A stretch of DNA of 64,000 nt from the NCBI GenBank assembly GCA_965224085.1, contig CBDCYI010000005.1, positions 2,144,001-2,208,000 of the forward strand. Reading direction: 5' to 3'. Origin of the DNA: Candidatus Marinacidobacterales bacterium. GTDB taxonomy: Bacteria; Acidobacteriota; Vicinamibacteria; Marinacidobacterales; SMYC01. This document shows positions 1 to 14,801 of the stretch, one piece after another. Position 1 is the stretch's first letter. Each line of letters begins with the position of its first letter. The notes below the pieces were generated by a model, which worked only from the letters and a program-made list of their open reading frames with translations, was not told the DNA's origin and did no database searches. A program made the position numbers and the translations under genes.

Positions 1-284
1 AAACGCTTACGCCACAATTCGGCTCAAAACGCGCTCTTCCCGGACCGCCATCACGCTGCATGCCCATCGACCAACCAGGGGCTATTGCAACGGCGATGCC
101 AGCGCGCGCGTTCACGGTGAAAGCACACTAACCCGTCTGATAACAAGCCTTTAGCTCGGGAGCGCAAATCGGCGGTGGTGTAGCCTGAACAGCCACACTT
201 CGAAGCGCGCGTAGTGGATCGTAGCGGCCGGCGACGAATCGGTGGAGTCGAGGCAAGCTTTCCCCGACCGGCAACGACAACACT

Positions 285-584
285 CTACCCATGAGGACTT
301 TTAGGGTTGAGAAGACTCGAGCGCGATGACGCGCGTGCACGGCGGATAAACCGATGAGAGTTAACGAATACACGAAAACAGTATTGGCACTGGTCGAGAT
401 GAGATATTAACCGCTCACGGTCGCTCGCATCTCCAAGGTTCCAACCGTCCCAACCATCAATGAGCTGGGCGAGCGCTTCCGCGTCAGGGCAGCGCGTGGG
501 TTCGAGGATTGTGCGCCGCCGTGTCACGCTAGCTCGCGAGGTCTTTCGTGCCGTGCCACAATGTTCATCGGGACATCCTCCCAA
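285..584 (-). CDS. Small zf-HC2 (zinc-binding anti-sigma-like) protein; start uncertain
   Basis: CPDAEALAQLIDG...RERLISHLDQCQYC fits the HxxxCxxC ZAS motif; directly downstream of an ECF-like sigma gene on the same strand. Confidence 0.55.
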   Translation of the reverse strand: MGGCPDEHCGTARKTSRASVTRRRTILEPTRCPDAEALAQLIDGWDGWNLGDASDRERLISHLDQCQYCFRVFVNSHRFIRRARASSRSSLLNPKSPHG

Positions 585-621
585 TTTTCACGTCCAATAG
601 GCCTTTCAGGTATCGTCTCGG

Positions 622-1455
622 TTAGACGGACAACGGCGCGCGATTCGGCACGTCTGGGAAAATGGTCTCCAGATCTATCGCTAGCTCAGAGCGGCCTATC
701 AAGGACTCGAGCGTCTCCCAACGGACCCCGGCTTGCTCCAGCCGGCAACGGATCCGCTTCAGCAACCTGGTGATGCGGGCGTAGATGGTCTTCGGTTTGA
801 GGTTCACCAAGTTCGCGATTTCCGGCACGCTCAGCCCTTCATCGAAACGCATCTTGAGGAGCAATCGGTCCTCCGAGGAGAGATCCCCGGTCGCGTCTTT
901 GAGTTGCGACTCCAGCTCACCGAGGAGGCCTGCGGCCTCGTGGCGATCGCAATCGTCTACGTAGCGCGTGGTTGCCAGCCGGGCCAGCACTTCTTCGTCA
1001 ACGCAAAAGAATCGCTCACGACGGGGAAGCTTTCCCGCGAGCTCCCATAGCTCGTCTTTTGTGCGGTCGCATTCGGTGCTCGTCAAGAGAATTTCCCGCG
1101 CTTGGTGGAAGTCGAAACCGTCCCGGTACAAGAGGGTCTCGAGCTTCATCGCGACCGTCCCGAGCTTCCGTGCCACCGTCGAGGGGCGCCATTTTCCCCA
1201 CTTCTGTGTGCGGAAATCTAGAAAGAGACGCTGCACAACGACCGTTAAATAGGTCTTGAACTGGCTCTCGCCCCGGAACTTCCTGATCCGGGCATAGTCG
1301 TTCTCGACGAGCTTGAACATCGTGAACGACGCGAAATCCTCCCGATCCTCGGACGTCAGGCGATGACGCCGCGAGATATAGCCGAGAATTTCTCCGACAC
1401 ACAAGTAGTGTGTTTCGAATAGTTTGCGACCTCCGCCGCGTTTATTCCTCTGCAT
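622..1455 (-). CDS. RNA polymerase sigma-70 family (ECF-like) sigma factor
   Basis: Region 2-like EDFASFTMFKL..FRGESQFKTYLTVVVQRLFLDF; region 4 HTH LSSEDRLLLKMRFDEGLSVPEIANLVNLKPKTIYARITR. Confidence 0.85.
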   Translation of the reverse strand: MQRNKRGGGRKLFETHYLCVGEILGYISRRHRLTSEDREDFASFTMFKLVENDYARIRKFRGESQFKTYLTVVVQRLFLDFRTQKWGKWRPSTVARKLGTVAMKLETLLYRDGFDFHQAREILLTSTECDRTKDELWELAGKLPRRERFFCVDEEVLARLATTRYVDDCDRHEAAGLLGELESQLKDATGDLSSEDRLLLKMRFDEGLSVPEIANLVNLKPKTIYARITRLLKRIRCRLEQAGVRWETLESLIGRSELAIDLETIFPDVPNRAPLSV

Positions 1456-1626
1456 ATCGACGCCTCCGCACTCCCGAAACTATGGCCTTTTACTGGTGTC
1501 AACGCTGGGGGGGCTGAAACCGAACAGCTAAAAGCTTTTTTTTCCAAAAAAAAAGCGCCGGAGCGCGGCCAGGTCGAGGTTGAGCGAAGCCAAGCTAGGG
1601 GCCCTGACCCTAGACAGTTGTATTGT

Positions 1627-2736
1627 TTAGAGCAGTCTTTGATAGAGGGATTCGTATTGCGGGATGATTTTCTGGCGATCGAACTCGGAGCCGGCGCGCT
1701 CGCGAGAAGCCTCGGCGAAACGTGCATGTTTGGCGTCGTCCGCAAGCAGCTCGATGGCGGCATCAGCCATCGCACGGACTTCGCCGACCGGGAGCAGATA
1801 GCCCGTTTCACCGTGAAGGACCACTTCGGGAAGCCCGCCCACGCGAGCGCCCACGACGGGCACATTGCAGTTCATCGCCTCGAGCGCCACGAGGCCAAAG
1901 CTCTCCTGCTCGCTCGGAAGAAGAAAGAGGTCCACCGCGGTCAGAAGAGTCTCCAAGTATTGCTGCTCGCCGAGAAAGTGAACGTGCTCGGTGAGGCCGA
2001 GCTCTTTGACGAGCTGGCGAACGAAGAGCCGCTCCGGCCCTTCGCCCACGAGCAGAAGCTTGGCCGGAAGCTCGCGGCAGACGAGCTCGAAAACACGAAC
2101 AACGTCGCTGACGCGCTTCACGGGGCGGAAGTTCGAAGCGTGCATCAAGATCTTCTCGCCGTTCGGCGCCCAACGTTCGCGACCGCAATCCGGACCATTC
2201 CCGCGGGTGGTGTCGATGAAGTTGTAAATGACGTCGATGGATCGTTCGAGAGAAAATTCCTTGATCGTTCTCCTTTTGAGATATTGCGAAACGGCCGTCA
2301 CCGCATCGGAGACTTGCATCGCGAAACGCGTGACGCGATGAAACGATTCGTCCGTACCGACGAGCGTGATGTCCGTCCCGTGGAGGGTCGTCACGATCTT
2401 GGGCGCCCCGTCGCCAATAATCTCCCTCGCGAGGAAAGCACTCACCGCGTGCGGCACGGCGTAATGCGCGTGGATCACGTCGAGGTGCTCGTCCGAAGCG
2501 ACCTCGGCCAGCTTCGTCGCGAGGCCGAGCGTGTAAGGCGGGTATTTGAATAGTGGATAGCTCGCGACCTCGACTTCGTGGACAACCACGTTCGGGTTGA
2601 AAGCCCGCAGCCGAAAGGGAACGGAGTAGCTGACAATATGCACGGTGTGGTCCCGCTCGGCGAGGCCGAGCGCGAGCTCTGAGGCGACGACACCGCTTCC
2701 GCCTTGTGAGGGATAGCAAACAATAGCGATGCGCAT
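1627..2736 (-). CDS. bshA: N-acetyl-alpha-D-glucosaminyl L-malate synthase (GT4)
   Basis: [65 protein letters not shown]; TGATG overlap with bshB1. Confidence 0.93.
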
Positions 2737-3461
2737 CACGTGATCCGCGTGAAAGGCCGGTCGAAAAACGCGACCGGATCCGCGACCTTCATGGCTTCGC
2801 GTAGGTAGAAACCTTCGCCGAAATCGGTGTCGATGAGCGCGCCGTGATAGCGATCCAGCGCTTCGACACGATCGAGAAAGCTCGGGTGACTGATATAGGT
2901 CGTTGGGGCCGCCTCGTCCTCGTTGTGAAGCTGCGAGGCATAGGCGCGCACGGCGCGCATCTTGTCCTCATGGTACGGCGTGATATCCACAATGAAAGAA
3001 GGCGCTATCTTGTGAGGCACGAGGTAGTAAATCACACAATGCGGACGGTGCGGCTCTCCATCCGCTTCGAGCTTCTGAAGCCCCGCAAGGTAGGCCCCCT
3101 CGGCGACCAGAGTACCGGACGCCGTATGATCCGGATGATTGTTCTCGGGGTAGTTTGTAAATACAAGCTTGGGTCGATGTTCGCGAATCGCCTCCGCGAC
3201 GGCGCGCTTCGTCTCGTCGTTCACGGTGAGACGACCGTCTCCAAGATCGAGCGATCGCCGCAGCGAGACGTTGAGAACCTCCGCGGCCTGGCGCGCTTCC
3301 GCAGCCCGAAGCTCGGGAGTCCCGCGCGTACCCATCTCTCCAGAGGTGAGATCGATAATCCCCGTCCGATAACCAAGCGCCGCCAACTTGAGCATCGTCC
3401 CCCCCATACAAAGCTCGACATCGTCGGGATGCGGCCCAAAAGCTAGAACATCAAGAGGCAT
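2736..3461 (-). CDS. bshB1: Bacillithiol biosynthesis deacetylase (PIG-L family)
   Basis: LDVLAFGPHPDDVELCMGGT, DLTSGEMGTRGT, HPDH; adjacent to bshA; ATG at 3461 preferred over the longer ORF start. Confidence 0.9.
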   Translation of the reverse strand: MPLDVLAFGPHPDDVELCMGGTMLKLAALGYRTGIIDLTSGEMGTRGTPELRAAEARQAAEVLNVSLRRSLDLGDGRLTVNDETKRAVAEAIREHRPKLVFTNYPENNHPDHTASGTLVAEGAYLAGLQKLEADGEPHRPHCVIYYLVPHKIAPSFIVDITPYHEDKMRAVRAYASQLHNEDEAAPTTYISHPSFLDRVEALDRYHGALIDTDFGEGFYLREAMKVADPVAFFDRPFTRIT

Positions 3462-3625
3462 GTCCGCAGTGTACTTCAGGCGGCGGCGAAGGGGCGTTGT
3501 CGGACCTACGGCGGGTGATGGAGAACAGAGAGAACTCTTCCACTCCGATCGCCGCTGGCCAGACGTCGCCAATAAAGCGCGCTCCCCAAAGCTTCTCGAA
3601 AGGGCGCCTATACTGCCACAATATT

Positions 3626-3639
3626 ATGATATATATCAT
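3626..3639. promoter_or_regulatory. Palindromic operator candidate for the TA operon
   Basis: Perfect 14-bp palindrome ATGATATATATCAT in an AT-rich patch just upstream of the antitoxin. Confidence 0.5.
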
Positions 3640-3650
3640 GGTAGAATTCA

Positions 3651-3917
3651 GTGATGGTTACTATGACAAACAATCTGCACGTGCCGTTGCCTGCCGATTT
3701 GAACGACGAGCTACGGACAGAAGCCGAGCGCTCCGGTCGGCCGGCGACCGAGATTGCGAGAGAGGCAATTCGGCTATTTCTGCGTCAGTGTCGCCGCCAG
3801 GCTCTGCACGAAGAGATCGCTGCCTACGCACGGAGCGTCGCCGGCACCGCGGCTGATCTAGATCCCGCGCTCGAGGATTCCGCGCTCGAGGTTATCGACT
3901 CACTAGACGAGACGTGA
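3651..3917 (+). CDS. Ribbon-helix-helix (CopG-like) antitoxin
   Basis: LHVPLPADLNDELRTEAERSGRPATEIAREAI RHH pattern, acidic tail, GTGA overlap with toxin; start may be ATG 3663. Confidence 0.8.
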   Translation: MMVTMTNNLHVPLPADLNDELRTEAERSGRPATEIAREAIRLFLRQCRRQALHEEIAAYARSVAGTAADLDPALEDSALEVIDSLDET

Positions 3918-4261
3918 GGCGCGGAGAGGTTTATCGAGCGGAGCTCCGCCCGCGGTCGGGATCAGAACAGCGAGGCACGCGTCCAGTGATCGTGGTTTCT
4001 CACGACGGTTTCAACGAAGTCGATACGTGGCGCTCGATCATCATTGTTCCCGTGTCCACCTCGGCAAAGCAAGCCGTACGGAGTGCAACCGCTGTGCCGC
4101 TGCCAAAAGGCGCCGGGGGCCTCTCCCAGGATAGTGTTGCGCTTTGTCACCAAGTCACCACCCTCGACCGAGCGAAGTTAGTCAAGAGGCTTGGCTCATT
4201 GGCATCCGACGATTTGACCCGCGTCGCGCTCGGCCTGAAAGCCTCGCTCGATCTGGACTAA
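3914..4261 (+). CDS. mazF: PemK/MazF-family type II toxin
   Basis: MRRGEVYRAEL.PRSGSEQRGTRPVIVVS, DSVALCHQVTTLDR. Confidence 0.9.
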   Translation: MRRGEVYRAELRPRSGSEQRGTRPVIVVSHDGFNEVDTWRSIIIVPVSTSAKQAVRSATAVPLPKGAGGLSQDSVALCHQVTTLDRAKLVKRLGSLASDDLTRVALGLKASLDLD

Positions 4262-4283
4262 AGGGATCGGTGGGCCGCGCGCT

Positions 4284-4290
4284 GGGGATG
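4284..4290. repeat. Detached outer tip of the IS256 left TIR (3' exon of intron copy A)
   Basis: GGGGATG; removing 4291-6183 rebuilds GGGGATG-TCCCGGCCGCTGTTGAATTTGG, an IS256-like terminus; the exact outer base (4284 or 4285) is uncertain. Confidence 0.7.
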
Positions 4291-6183
4291 GTCGAGTAGC
4301 TCAGCCATTCGGCTTTCGCCCTCACAGATCCGAGCGTGCGGCTTTCCCGCACTCGGCTCCTCCTGAAGGTATACCCGAAATCAGACAAGGCAAGGTAGTC
4401 GGGACGGAGTGAGGTGAGGGACTGGTAGGGGAAAGCGCTCCAACAACAAGTGAAAACGAGGCCAGGTCATTCGGCGCTGACTCCGCCGACGAAGGCTTCG
4501 AAACCACAACCGTGTCACCTCCTCAGAAAAGGATTGGAGAGAGCGGATGTTGCTGGGAAGTCCGTAGTACGCGTAGTGACCGCGCAGCACCTGGCAAAGC
4601 CAGCGATGCTGGACGGCGACTGGAGCATGCATACGTTGCTTCGCGCGAAGCCGTAGCGACTTGAGTTTGGCTCGTAGCCGCTGGCTCTGCGTTTTGCGCT
4701 TCACGACGAAACGGCCATCGCGGGTTCTCCCACAATAATGAGTGAAACCCAGGAAAGCGAACGTCGCACACCGCCAAAGGCCCCGTTGCTCGCGTGACAA
4801 GGAAGGTAATCTCCCGAACTCGAGCAAACGGGTCTTGTTCTCGTGGAGCGCAAGCCCGAATCGGGCTAGTCGCTCCTTGAGCGCTCTCATCATCCTGCTG
4901 GCATCGGTCCGATGCTGGAAGCCCATGACGAAGTCGTCAGCGTATCGCACGATGGAAATACGGCCTTGTGCTTCGAGCCGGCGCCATCGATGAACCCACA
5001 GATCTAGAACGTAGTGCAGAAAGACGTTAGCCAAGAGCGGGCTCACACCTGCCCCTTGCGGTGTCCCTTCAGTTGTCTCGCTCCACTCTCCTTTCTCCAG
5101 CACGCCGGCTCGCAACCACTGACGGATGAGTCGAAGGATGCGTTTGTCGGCGACCCGGTGCGAAAGCATCCGCATCAACCACTCGTGGTCCACCGAGTCG
5201 AAGAACTTGCGGATGTCCGCGTCGAGAACCCAGTTCACGCGTTGCGTCATGAGCGCGGTGTGGAGCGCGTGCAACGCTTGGTGCGGGCTCCGTCCGGGCC
5301 GAAACCCGTACGAGAACCCGATGAAATCGACTTCGTAGACGGCGCTCAAAACCTCGGCTACCGCTCCTTGGACAATCTTGTCTTCCAGTGCGGGGATGCC
5401 AAGAGGGCGCTTTCCGCCATCCGACTTAGGAATGTACACGCGCCGCACCGGTAGTGGTCGGTAGCGACCGGCGTGTACCCGCGAGCAAAGATCCTTGATG
5501 TTGCTCACGAAGTTCTTCTCGTAATCGGCGACAGTCTCTCCGTCGACACCAGCGCTTGCGCTGCGCTTCAACCGACGAAACGCTCGATAGAGCGCTTCGT
5601 GATCCACGTGATGCAGCAACGCAGTGAACCGAGCCTTTCTATCTCGCTTCGCTGCTTCGTTCACCCGCGTGAGATTTGGCGGTAAGGCGACCCGGCGCTG
5701 TGTCCGGACCTTAGCCCTCTCCCGTGGGTTCCCTCCAGGCCGATCCCTTCCCTCCACCATCTCGTTGCCTTCGATAGCTTCCTCAGTACTATGAATCGGT
5801 CCGACTTCCGGCCTCAGCTCAGCACCGCGCTTCGGTTTTCCCTTGCGCGACGCCCCCATCGGTGACCATTCCGATGGACCCGGCCGGACCTCCTGGGTCC
5901 CGAAAGGAACTCTTCGTACGTGATGTGGTCCACGACCCCGGCGGAGCGTAACCATCTCGCGATAGCGATGGCCCACATGCTGCCTTCATTGACGGGAATC
6001 AACTCGGCCTTCCGCGATATTCAGCATTTCGAGGCTACATTCACACACCCTGCACGACCCCTGTCTACGCTTCGGACCCCGCGTTGCCACGACGCCCGCA
6101 AGACTCGGTCCCGACCTGTCCGCTACGACTTTTGGTCGGATTGGACTTCCACCCATAGGCTCCTTTCAGTTAGCCCAGCGCAC
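4291..6183 (-). mobile_element. Group II intron, copy A (complete, 1893 nt; probably bacterial class E)
   Basis: 5' GTGCG at 6183; domain V GAGCCGAGTGCGGGAAAGCCGCACGCTCGGATC; 3' end CTACTCGAC at 4291; internal RT ORF; EBS1-like loop TTGA-TTCCCG-TCAA complementary to 5' exon CGGGA. Confidence 0.93.
4381..5760 (-). CDS. ltrA: Group II intron reverse transcriptase/maturase without En domain
   Basis: FTALLHHV, AGVDGET, RPLGIPALEDK, SYGFRPGRS, DADIRKFFD, GTPQGAGVSPLLAN, RYADDF, FLGFTH; true start uncertain because ATG 5760 lies in RNA domain III. Confidence 0.92.
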   Translation of the reverse strand: MVEGRDRPGGNPRERAKVRTQRRVALPPNLTRVNEAAKRDRKARFTALLHHVDHEALYRAFRRLKRSASAGVDGETVADYEKNFVSNIKDLCSRVHAGRYRPLPVRRVYIPKSDGGKRPLGIPALEDKIVQGAVAEVLSAVYEVDFIGFSYGFRPGRSPHQALHALHTALMTQRVNWVLDADIRKFFDSVDHEWLMRMLSHRVADKRILRLIRQWLRAGVLEKGEWSETTEGTPQGAGVSPLLANVFLHYVLDLWVHRWRRLEAQGRISIVRYADDFVMGFQHRTDASRMMRALKERLARFGLALHENKTRLLEFGRLPSLSREQRGLWRCATFAFLGFTHYCGRTRDGRFVVKRKTQSQRLRAKLKSLRLRAKQRMHAPVAVQHRWLCQVLRGHYAYYGLPSNIRSLQSFSEEVTRLWFRSLRRRSQRRMTWPRFHLLLERFPLPVPHLTPSRLPCLV

Positions 6184-6220
6184 TCCCGGCCGCTGTTGAA
6201 TTTGGTCGGGTAGCGGCGGC
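6184..6220. repeat. IS256 left TIR, inner part
   Basis: TCCCGGCCGCTGTTGAATTTGGtcgGGTAGCGGCGGC; 22-bp perfect inverted match (6184-6205 vs 7608-7629) plus a further 12-bp match. Confidence 0.88.
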
Positions 6221-6234
6221 ACCTGTGAATACTC

Positions 6235-7530
6235 TTAGGCAGCAAACTCATCGCTGTCAAGAGATTTCTGTTTGCTTCTAAGCGCGTGAACGAGAGCGCC
6301 CATATGGCGATAGCCTTTGATACGCCGGAACTTCTTCTCCGCCGTGACGACGCCGAGAGCGGTCCATCGGCGAACCATCGAAGGACTCTTCCAACGCTTG
6401 ACGTTTCTCGATACTCTTCGAATGGTTCCGTTGAGATTCTCAATGGCGTTCGTCGTGGCAAGAGACTGGCGAAGTAACTCGGGCAGAGCGAGCTTCACGA
6501 CCGTGAGCGTCTCTTCCATCCCTTCGCGAAGGCTTCCGGCAGCTTCATCGTGGCTGTTTCGCTCGAGCCACGACACCAATGCCTGAAGTCGCTTGCGCGC
6601 CTTGTCGGCACTCTTGCACTTGTAGGCTTTCTTCATCGTCTGGAGCACGTAGGCGTGACGAGACTTGGGAAGGTACGAGCGAAGATTTCGGAGTTTATGG
6701 ATCTGGCACCTTTGGATGACCGCGAGATCCCCCAACACGTCGACGAGTGCCTTGCGGATACCTTTGCCTCCGTCCACTACACAGAGAATCGACTCATCGA
6801 CGCGCAAGCCTCGCTCGAGAAGGTCCTGCAACATCGCGGTGCACACCCGAGAGTTTTCCGTCGAGCCCAGCCATATACCCAGGGGCACCTTCGTTCCATC
6901 TATTGTGATACCGAGAGTTACGACGACGGTCTGGCCGGCCACCTCAAGGCCATCCATCATCAGTGCCGCAAGTTCGTACTCCTCTAGCCGCCGAGACAGG
7001 TATTGCTCGAGCTTCTTCGTCGTCTGGCTCACGAGGTGACGGCTGGCGGCACTCTTGCTCGTGCCACGAGACTTCAACTTGGCCGCGGGTTTGTCCAGAC
7101 TCCGTTCGTAATTTCGGGTCGATACCCCCACCAAGATCTGATTCAACACTCGCTCTGGAAGCGGGTCTTCTTCGCGGAAGGCTTCGAAGTGTGGAAGCGA
7201 CGCCTCCTCACCAGACTTCGAACGCACTCGAGGTCGCGACACTTGGATGCGACGACCACCGAAGCTCAGCTCTCCGTTCGTGCTCCCCCAGTGGTTATGA
7301 GTTCGCTCCTTCTCGTGCTTGCCCTTGAGCCCCGCGACCTCCTCGGCGTCCTCTCTGAGCAGTAGGTGCAGAGCTGTCAGTCCTTGCTCGTACACCCATT
7401 CCGTCAGATCCGCCTTCGTGGCCGCGATCCCAGCTATCATCGGTAGCAGTATCTGACCGGCTTGGCCAACTACCTTGCCCGTAGGCGAGTGCGTTTGCTT
7501 TCTTACTGGCTTCTTTGATTTCCTAGGCAT
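6235..7530 (-). CDS. IS256-family (Mutator-like) DDE transposase, intact
   Basis: RPRVRS, GVSTRNY, LMMDG, VVDGGKG, QRCQIHKLRN, TTNAIENLN, KKFRRIKGY. Confidence 0.93.
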   Translation of the reverse strand: MPRKSKKPVRKQTHSPTGKVVGQAGQILLPMIAGIAATKADLTEWVYEQGLTALHLLLREDAEEVAGLKGKHEKERTHNHWGSTNGELSFGGRRIQVSRPRVRSKSGEEASLPHFEAFREEDPLPERVLNQILVGVSTRNYERSLDKPAAKLKSRGTSKSAASRHLVSQTTKKLEQYLSRRLEEYELAALMMDGLEVAGQTVVVTLGITIDGTKVPLGIWLGSTENSRVCTAMLQDLLERGLRVDESILCVVDGGKGIRKALVDVLGDLAVIQRCQIHKLRNLRSYLPKSRHAYVLQTMKKAYKCKSADKARKRLQALVSWLERNSHDEAAGSLREGMEETLTVVKLALPELLRQSLATTNAIENLNGTIRRVSRNVKRWKSPSMVRRWTALGVVTAEKKFRRIKGYRHMGALVHALRSKQKSLDSDEFAA

Positions 7531-7595
7531 TGGTGGCTCCTTGTCCCCCTCTGGAGACGGTTGTTTGGCAGACCTATTCTTAGGCCGGCCAAGGA

Positions 7596-7629
7596 GCCGC
7601 CGCTACCCCAAATTCAACAGCGGCCGGGA
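7596..7629. repeat. IS256 right TIR, inner part
   Basis: GCCGCCGCTACCCCAAATTCAACAGCGGCCGGGA, immediately followed by intron start GTGCG. Confidence 0.88.
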
Positions 7630-8025
7630 GTGCGCTGGGCTAACTGAAAGGAGCCTATGGGTGGAAGTCCAATCCGACCAAAAGTCGTAGCGGACAGGTC
7701 GGGACCGAGTCTTGCGGGCGTCGTGGCAACGCGGGGTCCGAAGCGTAGACAGGGGTCGTGCAGGGTGTGTGAATGTAGCCTCGAAATGCTGAATATCGCG
7801 GAAGGCCGAGTTGATTCCCGTCAATGAAGGCAGCATGTGGGCCATCGCTATCGCGAGATGGTTACGCTCCGCCGGGGTCGTGGACCACATCACGTACGAA
7901 GAGTTCCTTTCGGGACCCAGGAGGTCCGGCCGGGTCCATCGGAATGGTCACCGATGGGGGCGTCGCGCAAGGGAAAACCGAAGCGCGGTGCTGAGCTGAG
8001 GCCGGAAGTCGGACCGATTCATAGT

Positions 8026-10058
8026 GTGTGCTGGGCAGCGTCCAGATCAGGAAGGTTGAAGTCCCTCTGGTGCTCGGATGAGGAGCGCCATATCCAAAAG
8101 CGGGGGTAACGCCTCGCTGGCCGGGGAACGCGGATAAGGAGAACCCTAAACGGGCACGAAGTTGGAAACGATGGCTACTGCCAAGGGGATGTACCTAAGT
8201 TCGGGTTCTGTCCACTGGACAACTGGAGGACAGGGTGTCCACCGCGAGGTGGAATCTGAAGGGTATGCGGAGCAGTACCGGGCCGTAATCGAGGGGGCGA
8301 CCCCGTTGATGAACCGGTCGGCCAAAGGTGGGGCAAGGTCGAGCCTGCACTATGGAGGCGAAGGCGTTCTCATTCACCCACCGAATCAAGGTGTTTGCGG
8401 ACGGCACGGTACGGAAGATCTGGACGTGACCCCAGGAGGGCTCATTGGGTTCCCGAGTGGCGTCGGGATAAGCGACCCTATAAGCGAGAGCGAAATGGGA
8501 AGTGAAGCCGGGTGAGTCGTCGGACAGCCCAATAGTACCTGAAGCGCGGTGAAAGTCGTGTGATCGAGAGATCGGCAGCCGAGTGGGCTGGGGAAGGGGG
8601 CTGGCAAAGGTGGTTGGTGACAACAAGGATGACAGACGAGTAAGGGCGATGACGCGGATAAGTTCCTTTAGTGAAAGACCCAGAAGTGATCGTCCGAGGA
8701 AACTGTCGGCCTGGTTGAACCCAACGGGTGAGAGGAAGGTCCACTCTCTGGTGGACAAGATATACAAGCGGAAGAACTTGGAGCTGGCCTGGAACCGAGT
8801 GAAGCGGAACAAGGGTGCCGGTGGCATCGATGGACAAACTCTGGACGAGTTTGAGGAGCAGCTTGATGCGCACCTCAACCGACTCCATGAGGAGCTCAAG
8901 ACCGATGCCTATCGTCCACTACCTGTTCGGCAGAAACTCATTCCCAAGGCTGGACAACCGGGAAAGTTCCGCCCGCTCGGCATTCCGGCCGTTTATGACC
9001 GCGTGTGTCAGCAGGCACTGCAGAACCGGTTGGAACCGATCTTCGAGCAGGTGTTCGATGCCGCCAGCTTCGGATATCGACGAGGAAGATCGACAAAGGA
9101 TGCTTTACGCAAGATCTGGCAAGAGATCGAAGAGGGTTACGAGTGGATCGTGGATGCGGATCTTTCCAATTTCTTTGGGACTGTGGACCATGAGAAGCTC
9201 CTCGCTCTTGTTGCCAAGCGAGTGTCGGATGGTCGCGTCCTTCGTCTTATTCGCAGCATGCTCAAAGCAGGCTGCATGGCGGAGGGGAGACGGCTCCCGA
9301 CCGAGCAAGGTGCACCGCAAGGCGGTGTGGTCTCACCGATCTTAAGTAACGTCCTTTTGACTCCGTTTGATCGGGAGATGCGCCATCGTGGCTATCGCCT
9401 GACGCGGTATGCCGACGACTGGGTCGTGACATGCTGCACCAAGGCAGAGGCCCAGAAGGTGCTGGCCGAAGCCCGGATGATCCTTACGACGTTGGGTGTA
9501 ACCTTGAACGTGGAGAAGACTCGTATCGTTCACGTTGCACACGGCTTCGAGTTCTTGGGATACAAGATCAAGCGGGGTAGTCGCCCTTTGGCCCTACCCT
9601 CACACAAGATCCGTACGGGTGTCCGCAAGGGTGACCTGTACGCGTACCCTCGACAGAAGTCGCTCCAGCACTTCAAGGATCAGATTCGGCGACGGACCTG
9701 TCGCAAAGCTCCTGTGAGTACGCAGCAGCTAATCGACGAGATCAACCCGGTTATTCGCGGTTGGGGTCTTTACTATCATAAAGCTCACGTCCGCAAGCTC
9801 TTCGCGCGTCTCGATCGTTGGATCCTGCGACGTATCTGGTCGCATCGGTTCAAACGCTGGCGCTGTCGGGGGTGGAAGCAGCTCCCGGAGCGTCAGCTCT
9901 ACGATGAGATGGGCCTCGTACGCTTTGTCTTCCTGATTCCTTCCATCAAGCCGCGATGAATAATCCAACCTTTGTGAAAGCCGGATACGGGAAAACTGTA
10001 TGTCCGGTTTGAGCGGCGGACGGGGGTCAGCGCTGCGGTGCGCCCCCTCCGACCCGAC
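8026..10058 (+). mobile_element. Group II intron C (complete, 2033 nt) nested in copy B; possibly class F-like
   Basis: 5' GTGTG at 8026; domain V AAGCCGGATACGGGAAAACTGTATGTCCGGTTT at about 9978-10010; 3' end CCGACCCGAC at 10058; excision restores CATAGT|ACTGAGG exactly as in copy A. Confidence 0.93.
8649..9959 (+). CDS. ltrA: Group II intron reverse transcriptase/maturase of intron C, no En domain
   Basis: KVHSLVDKIY, NKGAGGIDG, RPLGIPAVYDR, SFGYRRGRS, GAPQGGVVSPILSN, RYADDW, FEFLGY; clearly divergent from the A/B RT; start uncertain. Confidence 0.92.
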   Translation: MTRISSFSERPRSDRPRKLSAWLNPTGERKVHSLVDKIYKRKNLELAWNRVKRNKGAGGIDGQTLDEFEEQLDAHLNRLHEELKTDAYRPLPVRQKLIPKAGQPGKFRPLGIPAVYDRVCQQALQNRLEPIFEQVFDAASFGYRRGRSTKDALRKIWQEIEEGYEWIVDADLSNFFGTVDHEKLLALVAKRVSDGRVLRLIRSMLKAGCMAEGRRLPTEQGAPQGGVVSPILSNVLLTPFDREMRHRGYRLTRYADDWVVTCCTKAEAQKVLAEARMILTTLGVTLNVEKTRIVHVAHGFEFLGYKIKRGSRPLALPSHKIRTGVRKGDLYAYPRQKSLQHFKDQIRRRTCRKAPVSTQQLIDEINPVIRGWGLYYHKAHVRKLFARLDRWILRRIWSHRFKRWRCRGWKQLPERQLYDEMGLVRFVFLIPSIKPR

Positions 10059-10085
10059 ACTGAGGAAGCTATCGAAGGCAACGAG

Positions 10086-11231
10086 ATGGTGGAGGGAAGG
10101 GATCGGCCTGGAGGGAACCCACGGGAGAGGGCTAAGGTCCGGACACAGCGCCGGGTCGCCTTACCGCCAAATCTCACGCGGGTGAACGAAGCAGCGAAGC
10201 GAGATAGAAAGGCTCGGTTCACTGCGTTGCTGCATCACGTGGATCACGAAGCGCTCTATCGAGCGTTTCGTCGGTTGAAGCGCAGCGCAAGCGCTGGTGT
10301 CGACGGAGAGACTGTCGCCGATTACGAGAAGAACTTCGTGAGCAACATCAAGGATCTTTGCTCGCGGGTACACGCCGGTCGCTACCGACCACTACCGGTG
10401 CGGCGCGTGTACATTCCTAAGTCGGATGGCGGAAAGCGCCCTCTTGGCATCCCCGCACTGGAAGACAAGATTGTCCAAGGAGCGGTAGCCGAGGTTTTGA
10501 GCGCCGTCTACGAAGTCGATTTCATCGGGTTCTCGTACGGGTTTCGGCCCGGACGGAGCCCGCACCAAGCGTTGCACGCGCTCCACACCGCGCTCATGAC
10601 GCAACGCGTGAACTGGGTTCTCGACGCGGACATCCGCAAGTTCTTCGACTCGGTGGACCACGAGTGGTTGATGCGGATGCTTTCGCACCGGGTCGCCGAC
10701 AAACGCATCCTTCGACTCATCCGTCAGTGGTTGCGAGCCGGCGTACTGGAGAAAGGAGAGTGGAGCGAGACAACTGAAGGGACACCGCAAGGGGCAGGTG
10801 TGAGCCCGCTCTTGGCTAACGTCTTTCTGCACTACGTTCTAGATCTGTGGGTTCATCGATGGCGCCGGCTCGAAGCACAAGGCCGTATTTCCATCGTGCG
10901 ATACGCTGACGACTTCGTCATGGGCTTCCAGCATCGGACCGATGCCAGCAGGATGATGAGAGCGCTCAAGGAGCGACTAGCCCGATTCGGGCTTGCGCTC
11001 CACGAGAACAAGACCCGTTTGCTCGAGTTCGGGAGATTACCTTCCTTGTCACGCGAGCAACGGGGCCTTCGGCGGTGTGCGACGTTCGCTTTCCTGGGTT
11101 TCACTCATTATTGTGGGAGAACCCGCGATGGCCGTTTCGTCGTGAAGCGCAAAACGCAGAGCCAGCGGCTACGAGCCAAACTCAAGTCGCTACGGCTTCG
11201 CGCGAAGCAACGTATGCATGCTCCAGTCGCC
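10086..11231 (+). pseudogene. ltrA: C-terminally truncated RT/maturase of intron copy B
   Basis: Matches copy A protein (one W/R change) up to RMHAPVA, then reads into unrelated DNA to a stop at 11339. Confidence 0.85.
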
Positions 11232-11279
11232 ATCGGGCTCGACGAAGAGGGCACCAATCTAGTTCTCTCCCGACCGATC

Positions 11280-11858
11280 GATACGATCTCGGCGCCCGGG
11301 CGTTGCGGGCGGTGTGTCGGCGGCGCGCCGACCTTGTAATTGAAAACCTTGCTCTGCGGCAGCAGGTGACGGCGCTCAAGAAGGAGCGCCCCAGGCCACC
11401 GCTCGACGACACGGACCGCGCATTCTGGGTTGCGCTCCGAAGCTCGTGGCCGGCGTGGGCGAGCCGCTTGGTCATCGTCAACGCAGACACAGTCGCCCGG
11501 TGGAATCGGGATCGATTCCGACGATTGGACTCGGAATCTCGCGCAGACGCTATCCAGGCCGACCTCGGATTGATGCCGAGACCCGCCACCTCATCCGCAC
11601 GATGTCGCAAGACGGCTGGGGCGCACCTCGTATCCACGCCGAGCTCAAGAAGCTCGCGGCGGCAGTTTCCGACCTAGCGCTCAGCGGTACCTCGCTTGTA
11701 TATCAGCTACCCACGAGGATCGTTGCCACTTGGGGCTCGAAAAAGACACGCCGAACGAGAGACTCATTACGCCGCGACCGTCACCCACGGCGAAAGTTGT
11801 CGCGCTGCCGAGAGTTGGTGGACTGCACCACCGCTACGCGTGGAGCGACGCAGCGTAG
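11280..11858 (+). pseudogene. Internally deleted rve-type integrase/transposase remnant
   Basis: ENLALRQQV..DRAFWVAL..DTVARW, GRPRIDAETRHLIRTM..WGAPRIHAELKKL and C-terminal VVALPRVGGLHHRY in shifting frames; catalytic core absent. Confidence 0.75.
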
Positions 11859-12287
11859 GGCAGTTTTATCGTCGCGAAACTCGCACCGCGGGAGCAGTCG
11901 TAGCTTGTGTTCTCCAGTTCGTGAAACCACAGGCCGCGTGTTCCTGGCAGCGTTTCGCCTACGTCGAGTCCGCCATCGTCCTCATCGCCGAGCCCCATGG
12001 GCCCAACTGTACCAGCGGACTAATAATGATGACGGACAGGTGTGATTGTTGGTCCTTCGCCATGATCGTGATATGGTCTGTGTGCGGTAGTGTATCGAAC
12101 GCCGTTCGCCAATGTTGAGTTGCGCGTCGGGTAGCGCAGGGAATCGTTGAATCGCCACGATAGTCGTCCTCAACGGGCTGTTCTCGGAGGCTGAGCACGG
12201 TGACCATTCTTACGGGCTGCGCGCCCAGCCCGTATGGGCTTTCGTTGTAGTCCGCAGCGGAGCGGGACCTTCGTAAGGAGAGAATGG

Positions 12288-14801
12288 ATGATCAGGACAC
12301 TCGCTCTTGGTGCCGTGATCGCGGGGATCGGGCTGGCAATAGGTAGCAGCCCGGTAGGCGCCTTGCCGTCCCCCGGGCAAGAAACAGGGGCCGTATCCGC
12401 TGCGTCGTTCGCGCGCGAGACCCCGACCGAGCCCGCAGCGCCCTCTCCTTCCCCTTCCGTTACGTCCGAAGCCCTGACCGAGGTGGTTCAGAGCTACTGC
12501 CTGGTCTGCCACGACGACCAGCAGATGACCGGGAACGTCTCGCTCCAGAACTTCGACGTCGAAAGAGCGGCGGAGCAGGCCGAGACGGCCGAGCGGATGA
12601 TCCGGAAACTGCGCTTGGGGATGATGCCGCCTGCAGGCATGCCCCGCCCCGAAGCGGACACCCTCCTGGCGCTGGTGGAGACCCTGGAGTCGAATGTCGA
12701 CGAGGCGGCCCGGACCGCTCCCGATCCAGGCGGGCGTCGGTTCCAGCGGCTCAGTCGGGTCGAATACGAGCGTGTGATCCACGACCTGCTGGCCCTGGAG
12801 GTGGACGCGGGCAAGTGGCTCCCTGTCGACCTTCTCATGGGCGCCTTCGACAACCAGTCGGCCGCCCAGCCGTTATCGCCGACCGTCCTGGATTCGTTTC
12901 TGAGGGCCGCCAGCGAGGTCGCTCGGCTGGCGGTGGGGAACCCCAAGGCCGCCCCCACCACGACGAAGCACGTGAATCCGGAGCGGGTTTCGCAGCACGC
13001 CTGGGATCGGCTCGAAGGCGCTCCGTTCGGAACCCGGGGAGGCATGGTGGTGACCCACGACTTCCCGGCGGACGGAGAATACGTCTTCCAGGTGAAGACC
13101 AAACAGGGGAGTGGGAATCAGACGGCGGTAGAGGATCTTGACATTTCCATCGACGGCGAGGGGGTCGCGCTCCTGATGCTCGAGCACAACGCAGGGGGGC
13201 GCAAGCGTGATGGCGTCGGCATTTTGCTGGCCGACCTGGAGGCGCGGGTCGGCATCCAGACCGAGCCGATCTTCGTCCGCGCGGGCCAGCACACGGTGTC
13301 GGCGGCGTTCGTCAACCTCATCGACGGTCCGTACGAGGATCGGTTCAGTCCTGTCGGATGGTCGGCCACCCATCCAATTACGAGCCAGCAGTACGGAATC
13401 ACCGGGCTGACGCACCTCAGCGAGCTGTGGATCACGGGCCCCAGCAATGTGTCCGGAGTGTCCGAGACGGCGAGTCGCCGAAAGATCTTCACCTGCCACC
13501 CGGCCTCGTCCGCCGAAGAGCGGCCCTGCGCCGAGTCGATCCTCACCGAACTGGCGACGCAGGCCTATCGGCGACCGGTGACGCAGCAAGACGTGGCGGA
13601 CCTGCTGTACTTCTACGACGAGGGAGCCGCCGAAGAGGGATTTGAACGCGGGGTTCGGATGGGGTTGCAGTCCATCCTCATGTCGCCCGATTTCCTGTTC
13701 CGGCTGGAGCGGGAGCCCGCCAGCGCCCGGCCGGGTGAGAGCTATCGACTGAGCGACGTCGAGCTCGCGACACGGCTCTCCTTCTTTCTGTGGGCCACGG
13801 CCCCGGACGAGGAACTCCTCGAGGTCGCCGCGAGCGGCCGGCTTTCGAACCCTGTCGTCCTCGAGCAGCAGGTCGAGCGGATGCTCGAGGATCCCCGGTC
13901 CGAGACGCTCGCCACCCGTTTCGCGCACCAGTGGTTGAGGCTGGAGGACGTCGGGGAGATCTGGCCGCAAGCGTATCTGTATCCGGATTTCACCGGACAG
14001 CTCGCCGACGCGTTGGTGCGGGAGACCGAGCTGTTCTTCCAGTCCCTTGTCGACGAGGACCGGAGCCTGCTCGAGCTCTTGGACGCCGACTACACTTTCG
14101 TCAACGAGCGTCTGGCCCGGCACTACCAGATCGAAGGAATCTACGGGGATGGATTCCGCCGTATCCAGTACCTGGACGACGGGCGCCGTGGAGTCCTCAG
14201 CCACGCGAGCGTGCTGCATCTGACCTCCATGGCGGACCGGACGTCTCCGGTGCTGCGCGGGAAGTGGGTCATGGAGGTGCTGCTCGGGTCGCCGCCGCCG
14301 CCGCCGCCGGAGAACGTGCCGGCTTTCGAGGAAACTCCGGCCGTCGACGAAGGCCGCCCTCTAAACACGCGCGAGCGGATGGAAGCACACCGCGCCAGCC
14401 CGGCGTGTAACTCCTGCCACCGCTTCATGGACCCGATCGGTCTGGCGCTCGACAGCTTCGACGCCACCGGCAGGTGGCGGATCCGTGAGAACATGGTGCC
14501 GCTCGACACGCGGGGCGACTTCTACGACGGTACGCCGATCGCCACGCCCACCGAGCTTGTCGGCGCGCTCCTGAAGCGCCCGATCCCGCTCGTACGGAAC
14601 TTCACCGAAAACCTGCTGTCATACTCGCTCGGCCGTCCCGTGGAGCACTTCGACCAGCCGACGATCCGCGCGATCGTCCGAGAGGCTGAAGCCAACAATT
14701 ATCACATGTCGTCCTTCATCTTCGGAGTGGTGAAGAGCTATGCTTTCCATATGAAACGGATGGAGCCGGCCGTCACCGCCGACGCTGGGGCCGGCCATTA
14801 A
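12288..14801 (+). CDS. Secreted diheme PSCyt/PSD-domain protein (DUF1587/1592/1588/1585/1595 type), paralog 1
   Basis: Signal peptide, CLVCH and CNSCH heme motifs, RLSRVEY, ELATRLSFFLW..PDEEL, RTSPVLRGKWV, PPPPP; AAGGAG RBS before ATG 12288. Confidence 0.85.
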   Translation: MIRTLALGAVIAGIGLAIGSSPVGALPSPGQETGAVSAASFARETPTEPAAPSPSPSVTSEALTEVVQSYCLVCHDDQQMTGNVSLQNFDVERAAEQAETAERMIRKLRLGMMPPAGMPRPEADTLLALVETLESNVDEAARTAPDPGGRRFQRLSRVEYERVIHDLLALEVDAGKWLPVDLLMGAFDNQSAAQPLSPTVLDSFLRAASEVARLAVGNPKAAPTTTKHVNPERVSQHAWDRLEGAPFGTRGGMVVTHDFPADGEYVFQVKTKQGSGNQTAVEDLDISIDGEGVALLMLEHNAGGRKRDGVGILLADLEARVGIQTEPIFVRAGQHTVSAAFVNLIDGPYEDRFSPVGWSATHPITSQQYGITGLTHLSELWITGPSNVSGVSETASRRKIFTCHPASSAEERPCAESILTELATQAYRRPVTQQDVADLLYFYDEGAAEEGFERGVRMGLQSILMSPDFLFRLEREPASARPGESYRLSDVELATRLSFFLWATAPDEELLEVAASGRLSNPVVLEQQVERMLEDPRSETLATRFAHQWLRLEDVGEIWPQAYLYPDFTGQLADALVRETELFFQSLVDEDRSLLELLDADYTFVNERLARHYQIEGIYGDGFRRIQYLDDGRRGVLSHASVLHLTSMADRTSPVLRGKWVMEVLLGSPPPPPPENVPAFEETPAVDEGRPLNTRERMEAHRASPACNSCHRFMDPIGLALDSFDATGRWRIRENMVPLDTRGDFYDGTPIATPTELVGALLKRPIPLVRNFTENLLSYSLGRPVEHFDQPTIRAIVREAEANNYHMSSFIFGVVKSYAFHMKRMEPAVTADAGAGH

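What the first reader, a model, noticed from the sequence alone, without database searches (positions are those of the whole stretch)
4284..7700. A group II intron that homes to IS256 terminal inverted repeats and occupies both ends of one element
Seen: both inverted repeats flanking the transposase end in CCAAATTCAACAGCGGCCGGGA and are followed at the same nucleotide by the intron start GTGCG (6183 on -, 7630 on +). Copy A ends CTCGAC at 4291 followed by CATCCCC, so excision rebuilds ...GGCCGGGA|CATCCCC, an IS256-like tip. The intron has a hairpin TTGA-TTCCCG-TCAA (7811-7824) whose loop UCCCG is complementary to the 5' exon CGGGA. Established: group II introns choose targets by EBS/IBS pairing, and DDE transposases need intact termini. 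Inference: this intron specialises on IS ends. Each IS copy offers two sites, insertion separates the terminal 6-7 bp from the rest of the TIR (1.9 kb for copy A) and probably immobilises the copy, and the still-intact transposase could spread other copies in trans, creating new targets. The intron would act as both a parasite and a brake of the IS.
Basis: partly seen in the sequence, partly recalled or inferred. Interest (0 to 1): 0.9.

Follow-up and report, generated by a model that had tools for sequence, protein, structure and literature searches.

The report
Intron that targets IS256 transposon ends
A self-splicing group II intron in this bacterium inserts almost only into the end repeats of one jumping gene, often at both ends, but a related intron in Sinorhizobium was already shown to target transposon end repeats, so this is a new example and not a new principle.

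Summary
A 1893-nt group II intron with an endonuclease-less RT/maturase sits 7 bp inside the tip of both terminal inverted repeats (TIRs) of an IS256-family element (window 6184-7629).

Genome-wide, 11 of 11 intron 5' junctions follow the TIR motif ...TTCAACAnCnGnCGGGA. All 12 of 12 3' junctions are followed by the IS tip CATCCCC. Three IS copies are occupied at both ends, two of them flanked by perfect 8-bp target duplications. Only two IS ends are free.

Copy B carries a second, nested intron (8026-10058), and it is cut off at 11234.

The idea is not new. RmInt2 of Sinorhizobium meliloti homes into both inverted repeats of ISRm17 (PMC4615759), and intron control of IS spread is in print. New here are:
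- the IS256-family target;
- the same pairing in Acidobacteriota and Methylomirabilota MAGs;
- near-saturation of the sites;
- mosaic TIRs in doubly occupied copies.

The "brake" role stays an inference. Verdict: a new member of a known kind, of moderate interest.

The parts
4276..4283 (.). Candidate left target-site duplication (CGCGCGCT) of the IS. Its right partner is lost with the truncation of copy B.
   Evidence: Inferred from the perfect 8-bp duplications around other copies. Not verifiable in the window.
4284..4290 (.). Terminal 7 bp of the IS left inverted repeat (GGGGATG). It is also the start of the 3' exon of intron copy A (CATCCCC on the - strand).
   Evidence: Free IS ends read ...CGGGACATCCCC.
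4291..6183 (-). Outer group II intron, copy A. It is full length (1893 nt), running 5' GTGCG to 3' CTCGAC.
   Evidence: It carries 2 private substitutions against the 7 other full-length copies.
4291..4361 (-). Domains V-VI of copy A.
   Evidence: RF00029, 53.2 bits.
4381..5760 (-). Intron-encoded protein of the outer intron: 459 aa, reverse transcriptase plus maturase, with no room for a DNA-binding/endonuclease domain.
   Evidence: PF00078 E 6e-39. TIGR04416 365 bits covers residues 55-426 of 459. It is 66-69% identical to rhizobial ltrA genes. The ORF is intact in all 8 full-length copies.
5993..5997 (-). EBS1 (UCCCG) of copy A. The same element is at 7816-7820(+) in copy B.
   Evidence: It lies in the hairpin loop of the RF02005 alignment. 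It is complementary to CGGGA (-5..-1). It covaries with the exon in relatives.
6022..6026 (-). EBS2 (UGCUG) of copy A. The same element is at 7787-7791(+) in copy B.
   Evidence: It pairs with CAGCG (-12..-8) and covaries with the exon in relatives.
6184..7629 (.). Body of the IS256-family element. It is 1446 bp without the two 7-bp tips, so the whole IS would be 1460 bp. The inner left repeat is about 6184-6224 and the inner right repeat about 7590-7629.
   Evidence: (pair I4). Intron-free copies in relatives are given.
6235..7530 (-). IS256-family (Mutator) transposase, 431 aa, intact.
   Evidence: PF00872 and NF033543. The ORF is intact in all 4 full-length IS copies.
7630..8025 (+). Outer intron copy B, nt 1-396.
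8026..10058 (+). Nested second group II intron (2033 nt, GTGTG...GAC). It lies in domain IV of the outer intron, 27 nt upstream of the outer IEP start codon. Its own IEP is at 8583-9959 and its domains V-VI at 9976-10058.
   Evidence: RF00029, 41.3 bits. RVT_1 plus GIIM. TIGR04416, 393 bits. A candidate EBS1, ACUAUG, is at 8349-8354.
10059..11234 (+). Outer intron copy B, nt 397-1572. It is truncated, with no end of the IEP, no D5/D6 and no 3' exon.
11235..12000 (.). Unclassified repeated sequence that replaces the rest of copy B.
   Evidence: Copies 76-87% identical lie elsewhere in the genome. NCBIfam gave no match to two translated pieces.

Best explanation
An RmInt1-like, endonuclease-less group II intron (1893 nt) spreads by retrohoming into one DNA site. 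That site is the sequence 5'-TTCAACA-n-C-n-G-n-CGGGA|C-3', which lies 7 bp inside the tip of both terminal inverted repeats of an IS256-family insertion sequence.

Target choice is by RNA-DNA pairing. EBS2 (UGCUG) pairs with positions -12..-8. EBS1 (UCCCG) pairs with positions -5..-1. A G presumably pairs with the C at +1. The conserved TTCAA further upstream is probably read by the intron protein.

Because the two IS ends are inverted copies of each other, each IS offers the site once on each strand. The intron therefore ends up pointing outwards at both ends.

In the window one IS is occupied at both ends. Copy A is intact. Copy B was in turn invaded, in its domain IV, by a second intron that homes into that spot, and was later truncated.

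Each insertion puts 1.9-3.9 kb between the terminal 7 bp and the rest of the repeat. This most likely disables transposition of that IS copy, because RNA splicing cannot repair the DNA.

Shown here: the anatomy, the site specificity, the native IS ends, the EBS/IBS covariation, and the intact ORFs.
Inferred: retrohoming as the process, the lagging-strand logic, and immobilisation of the IS.
For: Anatomy.

Census of the whole genome:
- 11 of 11 intron 5' ends follow at least 17 nt of the TIR.
- 12 of 12 3' ends are followed by CATCCCC and then by 11 different flanks.
- The count gives 14 recognisable IS ends. Eleven carry the intron. One (C4:1360216) keeps only GTGC before another repeat element. 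Two are free (C4:895324, C7:303).
- Three of 4 full-length IS copies are occupied at both ends and the fourth at one end.
- Perfect 8-bp duplications flank two whole intron-IS-intron units: CTCACGGA on C11 and CCCGGCAG on C4. So the IS inserted first.
- The nested state differs between loci, as expected for separate invasions.

Native ends: nine intron-free copies in nine related genomes end GGGGATG...CATCCCC, with perfect 8-bp duplications in 5 of 9.

Pairing: across the window intron and 13 relatives, cognate EBS1/IBS1 gave 66 of 70 pairs against a shuffle mean of 60.0 (0 of 3000 shuffles reached the observed value). EBS2/IBS2 gave 58 of 70 against 48.8 (1 of 3000). Compensatory pairs include CCCGG/CCGGG, UCCCA/UGGGA, UCCGU/ACGGG and GCCAA/UUGGC.

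Activity: all 8 full-length copies have intact IEP ORFs and differ by at most 2 nt.

Independent assemblies: contigs from three studies bridge flank, tip and intron 3' end (3600-4313) and intron 5' end and TIR (5788-6213).

Precedent for the mechanism: RmInt2 retrohomes experimentally into the IRs of ISRm17 (PMC4615759, passages read).
Against: No experiment here shows splicing, retrohoming or loss of IS mobility.

RNA evidence is weak. RNA-library contigs cover parts of both introns, but DNA carry-over cannot be excluded, and no ligated-exon read from an occupied locus of this genome was seen.

The canonical right-end repeat (CATCC at -12..-8) pairs with EBS2 at only 3 of 5 positions, yet it is occupied. 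So EBS2 pairing is loose or not required.

Among 10 related loci with upstream flank, 3 lie next to non-IS genes and 3 next to ORFs with no family. The clade is therefore not uniformly IS-bound.

The class D label rests on 66-69% identity to rhizobial ltrA genes, not on a tree. The best rhizobial hits are not RmInt1 at its canonical site, because their IBS1 differs from the GAUGAG given in PMC3123198.

The truncation junction at 11234/11235 was not seen bridged in the contigs listed.
Confidence: 0.82

Rival explanations
1. The intron-IS-intron block, or an IS with an intron in one repeat, is itself the mobile unit. The transposase still uses the outermost 7-bp tips, so the blocks at different loci are transposition products and not separate intron invasions.
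For: The 8-bp duplications lie outside the introns, flanking the whole block. This is also what transposition of the block would give. All four transposase ORFs are intact.
Against: The blocks differ. On C11 both introns carry the nested intron. On C4 only the left one does, and in the window only the right one. Only 7 bp of the repeat would remain at each end. In relatives the IS is always the compact 1460-bp form: 622 uninterrupted ends and 0 intron-bearing ends in 30 genomes.
Confidence: 0.06
2. The intron no longer retrohomes. Its copies were spread at the DNA level by homologous recombination or gene conversion between IS copies and by segmental duplication.
For: Gene conversion does occur around these elements. 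Four of 11 occupied repeats are mosaics of the left and right types, all in doubly occupied IS copies. One 3' fragment with its flank is duplicated (C5:1938342 and C5:2298277). Many copies are truncated or rearranged.
Against: Copying an insert that lies 7 bp from the IS tip into another IS copy at a different locus would need homology on the outer side, and only 7 bp are shared there. IEP ORFs are intact in 8 of 8 full-length copies, with at most 2 nt differences. The EBS-IBS match and its covariation in relatives point to RNA-guided targeting.
Confidence: 0.09
3. The inverted second copy is an assembly artefact, that is, a collapsed or duplicated repeat.
For: The two arms are nearly identical (3 differences in 1572 nt). 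Short-read contigs break at the repeat borders.
Against: Two further loci show the same double occupation with their own unique flanks and matching duplications. The assembly has Mb-scale contigs that run through many such repeats. Contigs from three other studies carry the flank-tip-intron and intron-TIR junctions.
Confidence: 0.02

Closest known systems
RmInt2 in the inverted repeats of ISRm17 (Sinorhizobium meliloti GR4; Martinez-Rodriguez et al. 2014, PMC4615759; Toro et al. 2018, PMC5894124; passages read in both)
   Same: It is an endonuclease-less intron of the RmInt1 group. All genomic copies lie in the inverted repeats of one IS. The left and right repeats give two sites per IS on opposite strands. 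Mismatches in EBS2/IBS2 are tolerated. The authors already link this to the lagging-strand bias and to control of the host IS.
   Different: ISRm17 is given as ISNCY family, ISDol1 group (PMC10194956, passage read), whereas the target here is IS256 family. RmInt2 uses a U-A EBS3/IBS3 pair, and here position +1 is C. Shown here and not read in the RmInt2 passages: 12 of 14 ends hit, three IS copies filled at both ends, a nested second intron, mosaic repeats, and the same intron-repeat pairing in other phyla. Figure S1 of PMC4615759 may show double occupation, but supplements were closed.
RmInt1 in ISRm2011-2 (S. meliloti)
   Same: It is an IS-specific, endonuclease-less class D intron. Poor splicing is said to block spread of the host IS (PMC5894124, passage read; PMC4238363, title and abstract in a search listing only).
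   Different: The target belongs to an IS of the IS630-Tc1/IS3 superfamily (title of a cited reference, seen in PMC1802570). It was not described as the terminal repeat in the passages I read. Its IBS1 is GAUGAG-type (PMC3123198, passages read).
IS-targeting introns of Enterobacteriales (E.c.I4 and others) and c-Ha.de.I1 of Hamiltonella (Leclercq and Cordaux 2012, PMC3522654, passages read)
   Same: These introns home to one fixed position in IS elements, and site occupation is tabulated. c-Ha.de.I1 also inserts into other copies of itself, which is a precedent for introns within introns.
   Different: The targets are positions in IS3-like transposases or ISPlu15-like elements, not the terminal repeats. 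In that paper occupation above 80% was seen only where fewer than 10 sites existed. Here it is 12 of 14.
Bacterial group II twintrons (for example Trichodesmium, PMC4649490; search listing only)
   Same: One group II intron sits inside another.
   Different: Here the inner intron sits in domain IV just upstream of the outer IEP start, in 6 of 11 outer copies that hold the site. The outer intron is itself inside an IS repeat, which gives three nested mobile elements.

Membership tests
Mobile group II intron | 5' GUGYG, domain V with the AGC triad, and domain VI with a bulged A near a 3' AY | tested here: met
   GTGCG at the 5' end and ...CUACUCGAC at the 3' end. RF00029 scored 53.2 bits and the alignment shows GAGCCG...CGGAUC. 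RF02005 scored 140.9 bits for D1-D4.
Mobile group II intron | An RT/maturase ORF in domain IV | tested here: met
   PF00078. TIGR04416 scored 365 bits against a cut-off of 300.
Mobile group II intron | EBS1/EBS2 complementary to the 5' exon, with covariation among relatives | tested here: met
   66 of 70 and 58 of 70 pairs, above the shuffles, with several double changes. The sequences are related, so the shuffle figures are not probabilities.
Mobile group II intron | Splicing and retrohoming activity | not testable with these tools
   Only indirect support: intact ORFs, near-identical copies and site specificity.
RmInt1-like / bacterial class D introns | An IEP without a DNA-binding/endonuclease domain | tested here: met
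   The RT/maturase model ends at residue 426 of 459, and there is no HNH or other C-terminal hit.
RmInt1-like / bacterial class D introns | Placement of the IEP inside class D in a phylogeny with reference introns | not tested
   Only 66-69% identity to rhizobial ltrA genes and alignable D1 with them. Which named intron these hits represent was not established.
IS256 family insertion sequence | A Mutator-type DDE transposase | tested here: met
   PF00872 E 4.5e-42. NF033543 scored 224.9 bits against a cut-off of 150.
IS256 family insertion sequence | A single-ORF element of about 1.3-1.5 kb with imperfect terminal inverted repeats and 8-9 bp target duplications (these figures are recalled and come from no call) | tested here: met
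   The element is 1460 bp with imperfect repeats of about 45 bp. Eight-bp duplications are perfect in 5 of 9 intron-free copies and at 2 loci of this genome.
IS-inverted-repeat-homing introns (RmInt2 type) | All or nearly all copies lie at one position of the IS repeats, and both repeats are used | tested here: met
   Eleven of 11 5' junctions and 12 of 12 3' junctions. Both the left and the right repeat are occupied.
IS-inverted-repeat-homing introns (RmInt2 type) | Experimental invasion of a cloned repeat target | not testable with these tools
   This was done for RmInt2 (PMC4615759), not for this intron.

The most novel reading that the evidence does not exclude
A clade of endonuclease-less, RmInt1-like introns has an old, cross-phylum partnership with the tip-proximal motif of IS256-family terminal repeats. 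Where it gains a foothold it acts as a natural suppressor of that IS by cutting off the repeat tips.

In the one genome that carries it, 12 of 14 IS ends are hit and no IS copy keeps two intact ends. Related genomes without it hold up to about 100 copies of the same IS.

A further layer is a second intron that parasitises domain IV of the first. In addition, inverted intron pairs drive gene conversion that scrambles the two repeats of an IS.
Probability: 0.3. Interest if true: 0.7.

Novelty: new member of a known kind. Interest (0 to 1): 0.45.

Why it matters
It adds a second, independent case of a group II intron that uses transposon end repeats as its homing site, here in the large IS256 family.

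It also hints that the pairing is old and widespread. The same arrangement is seen in Acidobacteriota and Methylomirabilota MAGs, and next to an IS256-family transposase on a Sinorhizobium plasmid.

The genome and its relatives give a natural contrast. One genome has nearly all IS ends disrupted. Sister genomes have tens to about a hundred intact copies and no intron. This makes the published idea that introns restrain their host IS directly testable.

For annotation, IS copies with introns in their repeats are easily miscalled as truncated IS elements or as "ltrA next to a transposase".

Tried and rejected
Assembly artefact: rejected (see rivals).

IS inserted into an intron, and not the reverse: rejected. 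Free IS ends are contiguous, and the duplications lie outside the introns.

C11:195321 as an intron copy outside the IS: rejected. Its 5' exon is a 17-nt remnant of the repeat that abuts the end of another repeated element. That element has about 10 copies and a weak Zn_ribbon_IS1595 hit (22.7 bits, below its cut-off of 25.4).

GUUGA in the stem next to EBS1 as EBS2: dropped in favour of UGCUG in the upstream internal loop, which covaries with the exon. My first covariation script used wrong junctions for four loci. It was replaced.

Escape mutations in free ends: rejected. The two free ends are identical to occupied ones.

Selection for better EBS2 pairing as the cause of the mosaic repeats: not supported, because the changes go both ways.

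Identity of the best rhizobial hits: I tried to name them as RmInt1 or RmInt2. This is unresolved. Their exons fit neither the IBS1 given for RmInt1 nor the +1 A of RmInt2.

Sequence after 11234: I recalled a likeness to IS481/IS3-type transposase N-termini, but NCBIfam found nothing.

RNA runs: contigs of one RNA library (X15) lie on parts of both introns and of the transposase. One of them joins an IS tip directly to the repeat, at a locus that is not among the 12 3' exons of this genome. This is neither proof of transcription nor proof of splicing. Parts without cover are not interpreted.

IS copy number as evidence for a brake: confounded. The two complete same-genus genomes hold 24 and 31 free ends, against 14 ends in all here.

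Literature: searches (group II intron with IS256, IS256 family, terminal inverted repeat, homing site) listed no paper on an intron in IS256-family repeats. That holds for this library only. Supplements of PMC4615759 (Figs S1, S2) were closed and may bear on double occupation.

Full report
**What is in the window.**

Reading 3900-12400 and scanning Rfam gives the following order.
- A MazF/PemK toxin gene ends at 4261.
- The 7-bp IS tip GGGGATG is at 4284-4290.
- A complete group II intron lies on the minus strand at 4291-6183 (1893 nt). Its D5-D6 is at 4291-4361, its IEP at 4381-5760 and its D1-D4 hit at 5926-6149.
- The body of an insertion sequence is at 6184-7629. Its transposase is at 6235-7530(-), with PF00872 E 4.5e-42 and NF033543 IS256 family at 224.9 bits.
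- The same intron starts again on the plus strand at 7630.

The second copy is not simple. After 396 nt a different 2033-nt group II intron is inserted (8026-10058). It has its own RT/maturase at 8583-9959 with RVT_1 and GIIM, and its own D5-D6 at 9976-10058. The outer intron resumes at 10059 and breaks off at 11234, which is outer nt 1572. It is followed by an unclassified repeated sequence. Copies A and B differ at 3 of 1572 positions.

**Is the intron tied to the IS ends?**

I laid the whole genome (12 contigs, 6.87 Mb) and searched it with the intron, the IS and the nested intron.

There are 11 intron 5' ends and 12 intron 3' ends. All 11 5' exons end in ...TTCAACA[G/T]C[C/G]G[G/C/A]CGGGA. 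All 12 3' exons begin with CATCCCC and then diverge into 11 different flanks, because one flank is a duplicated segment.

Ten of the 5' exons continue into recognisable IS sequence. The eleventh (C11:195321, next to a 5S rRNA gene) keeps only 17 nt of the repeat. Another repeated element with about ten copies abuts it there.

One further right end (C4:1360216) is followed by GTGC, the first four intron bases, and then by yet another repeated element.

Two left ends are free and read ...CAGCGGCCGGGACATCCCC followed by unique flank (C4:895324 and C7:303).

The tally is 14 recognisable ends: 11 occupied, 1 with a remnant and 2 free.

Of the four full-length IS copies, three are occupied at both ends (the window; C11 1218036-1219481; C4 256434-257879) and one at one end. 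The C11 and C4 blocks are flanked by perfect 8-bp direct repeats, CTCACGGA and CCCGGCAG, outside the introns. So the IS inserted there as an ordinary IS and was invaded afterwards.

The three blocks differ in which intron carries the nested intron.

**The native IS ends.**

Thirty related genomes were searched.
- The same IS (94-97% identical over the full 1446 nt) is common in ten of them.
- Nine copies from nine genomes all have the tips GGGGATG...CATCCCC, with variant tips in two of the 18 ends.
- Perfect 8-bp duplications are present in 5 of 9, and one more is near-perfect.
- The uninterrupted target motif occurs 2 times in this genome and 622 times in the 30 relatives, up to 200 in one genome. 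Its reversed control occurs 0 times.
- The repeat-plus-intron-start motif occurs 11 times here and 0 times in the relatives.
- The intron itself was found only as one 534-nt 3' fragment, again followed by CATCCCC, in one same-genus genome.

**Target recognition.**

Its loop UCCCG (7816-7820) is complementary to CGGGA at -5..-1.

I fetched related introns from other species (79 loci) and from rhizobial plasmids. I located the 5' junction in the closer ones and aligned 13 of them with the window intron.

The loop changes together with the exon: CCCGG with CCGGG, UCCCA with UGGGA, CUCGC with GCGGG, UCCGU with ACGGG, and GCCAA with UUGGC.

A second element, UGCUG (7787-7791) in the internal loop upstream, pairs with CAGCG at -12..-8. 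It also covaries: CGUAG/CUACG, UUGGC/GCCAA, GGUGG/CCAC[U/C].

Cognate pairs total 66 of 70 for EBS1 and 58 of 70 for EBS2. Shuffling exons among introns gives means of 60.0 and 48.8. Zero and 1 of 3000 shuffles reach the observed values. The sequences are related, so these are not probabilities.

The canonical right repeat (CATCC) pairs with EBS2 at only 3 of 5 positions and is still occupied. This resembles the mismatch tolerance reported for RmInt2.

**What kind of intron.**

The IEP is 459 aa. The group II RT/maturase model ends at residue 426, so there is no endonuclease domain.

Its best plasmid matches are rhizobial ltrA genes at 66-69% identity. RmInt1, RmInt2 and Sr.md.I1 of that group are called class D in PMC4615759. 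I did not build a tree. The best hits are not RmInt1 at its canonical site.

All eight full-length copies have intact IEP ORFs and differ by at most 2 nt. The window's copy A carries the two private changes, one of which gives W329 in place of R. All four transposase ORFs are intact.

**The same pairing elsewhere.**

Ten related loci had enough upstream sequence to test.
- In four (two Terriglobia MAGs, a Bryobacteraceae MAG and a Methylomirabilis MAG) a Mutator-family transposase lies directly upstream of the intron. These transposases are only 34-42% identical to the one here.
- In the Methylomirabilis contig the far end of that IS is free and reads GGGGATG|TCCCG. The occupied end has CGGGA|intron|CATCCCC, which is the same site.
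- On a Sinorhizobium meliloti plasmid a related intron starts about 60 nt after the stop codon of an IS256-family transposase fragment (NF033543, 304.6 bits).
- Against this, three loci lie next to unrelated genes and three next to ORFs with no family.

**Known or new.**

Group II introns that home into IS elements are well known (PMC3522654, passages read).

More to the point, Martinez-Rodriguez et al. (PMC4615759, passages read) report that all copies of RmInt2 lie within the inverted repeats of ISRm17. They state that these repeats give two sites per IS on opposite replication strands, and that RmInt2 retrohomes into a cloned repeat target. They add that tighter control of splicing would mean stronger control of the host IS. 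Toro et al. (PMC5894124, passages read) repeat this.

ISRm17 is given as ISNCY family, ISDol1 group (PMC10194956, passage read), so the IS family differs.

My four literature searches listed nothing on IS256-family repeats as intron targets. Nested bacterial introns are also in print (PMC3522654 passages; PMC4649490 in a listing only).

**The brake hypothesis.**

What supports it is circumstantial. In this genome no full-length IS copy keeps two uninterrupted repeats. Some relatives without the intron hold about 70-100 copies.

But the two complete genomes of the same genus hold only 24 and 31 free ends, against 14 ends in all here. Lineage effects can therefore explain much of the contrast.

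The step "an interrupted repeat cannot be used by the transposase" is inferred from what is generally known of DDE transposases. It was not tested.

**Independent data.**

Contigs from runs of three studies carry the flank-tip-intron 3' end junction (3600-4313) and the intron 5' end-repeat junction (5788-6213). Summed depths over the introns are roughly ten-fold those of the unique flank, in line with the copy numbers, although contig depth is not a copy number.

**Verdict.**

The core interpretation, homing to the IS repeats at both ends, is supported. The functional claim is open, and the novelty is modest. The case is a new member of a known kind, and it offers a good natural system for testing intron control of an IS.

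Noticed in passing
window 7608-7629; also G000 C11:1218036/1219481 and C4:256434: In intron-free copies the left repeat reads CAACAGCGGCCGGGA and the right repeat CAACATCCGGCGGGA. This held in all 150 places listed, and in about 40 pairs that I read by eye each IS had one of each type. In this genome 4 of 11 occupied ends break the rule. The window's right end carries the left type. Both C11 ends are mosaics (GCCGGC, GCCGCC). One C4 left end reads TCCGAC. All four lie in doubly occupied IS copies. This suggests gene conversion between the inverted intron-plus-repeat arms.
   Followed up: partly
window 8026-10058; G000 C9:853583-855615 (L083 4584-6616): The nested intron has 7 identical copies. 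Six are at outer-intron nt 396|397, 27 nt upstream of the outer IEP start codon. The seventh lies about 270 nt downstream of a hit to a third kind of group II intron (RF02003, L083 4178-4314). It may therefore specialise on domain IV of other introns. A candidate EBS1, ACUAUG, at 8349-8354 pairs with CAUAGU.
   Followed up: partly
L084 (G000 C11:190000-199000) 1-3131: The 23S rRNA gene match spans 3131 nt for model positions 1191-2925 and contains two group I intron hits (RF00028 at 775-1022 and 1107-1375). A 5S rRNA gene lies at 3275-3391, directly beside an intron-occupied IS repeat remnant.
   Followed up: no
window 3651-4261: A MazF/PemK toxin gene (3914-4261, PF02452 E 6.7e-27) is preceded by an overlapping 88-aa ORF with no Pfam hit. 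This is probably a toxin-antitoxin pair. The IS tip lies 23 bp after its stop codon.
   Followed up: no
G000 C4:1360216 and downstream: An IS right end is followed by only GTGC of the intron and then by a 389-nt repeat with more than 10 near-identical copies, and by a second repeat of 816 nt. The genome is dense in other small mobile elements that cut into the introns. Outer-intron fragments ending at nt 785 and starting at nt 780 suggest another insertion with a 6-bp duplication.
   Followed up: partly
G000 C9:533914 and C9:650051: Two more unoccupied look-alike sites exist. One is a solo 20-nt piece CACAGCGGCCGGGACATCCCC that lacks the upstream TTCAA. The other is the end of a 72%-identical IS relative that reads GCTGGGACATCCCC. 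They may mark the limits of target recognition.
   Followed up: no
window 3600-4284 (run X1): One 6977-nt contig of run X1 matches the flank up to 4284, the first base of the IS tip, and has 2331 nt more. This is possibly an IS-free allele of this locus in that sample. The continuing letters were not shown.
   Followed up: no
L082 (S. meliloti plasmid NZ_CP088117.1) 1091-4869: A rhizobial relative of the intron sits between the C-terminal part of one IS256-family transposase (+ strand) and an inverted, interrupted second IS256-family transposase. This looks like an IS nested in an IS, with the intron at the junction.
   Followed up: partly
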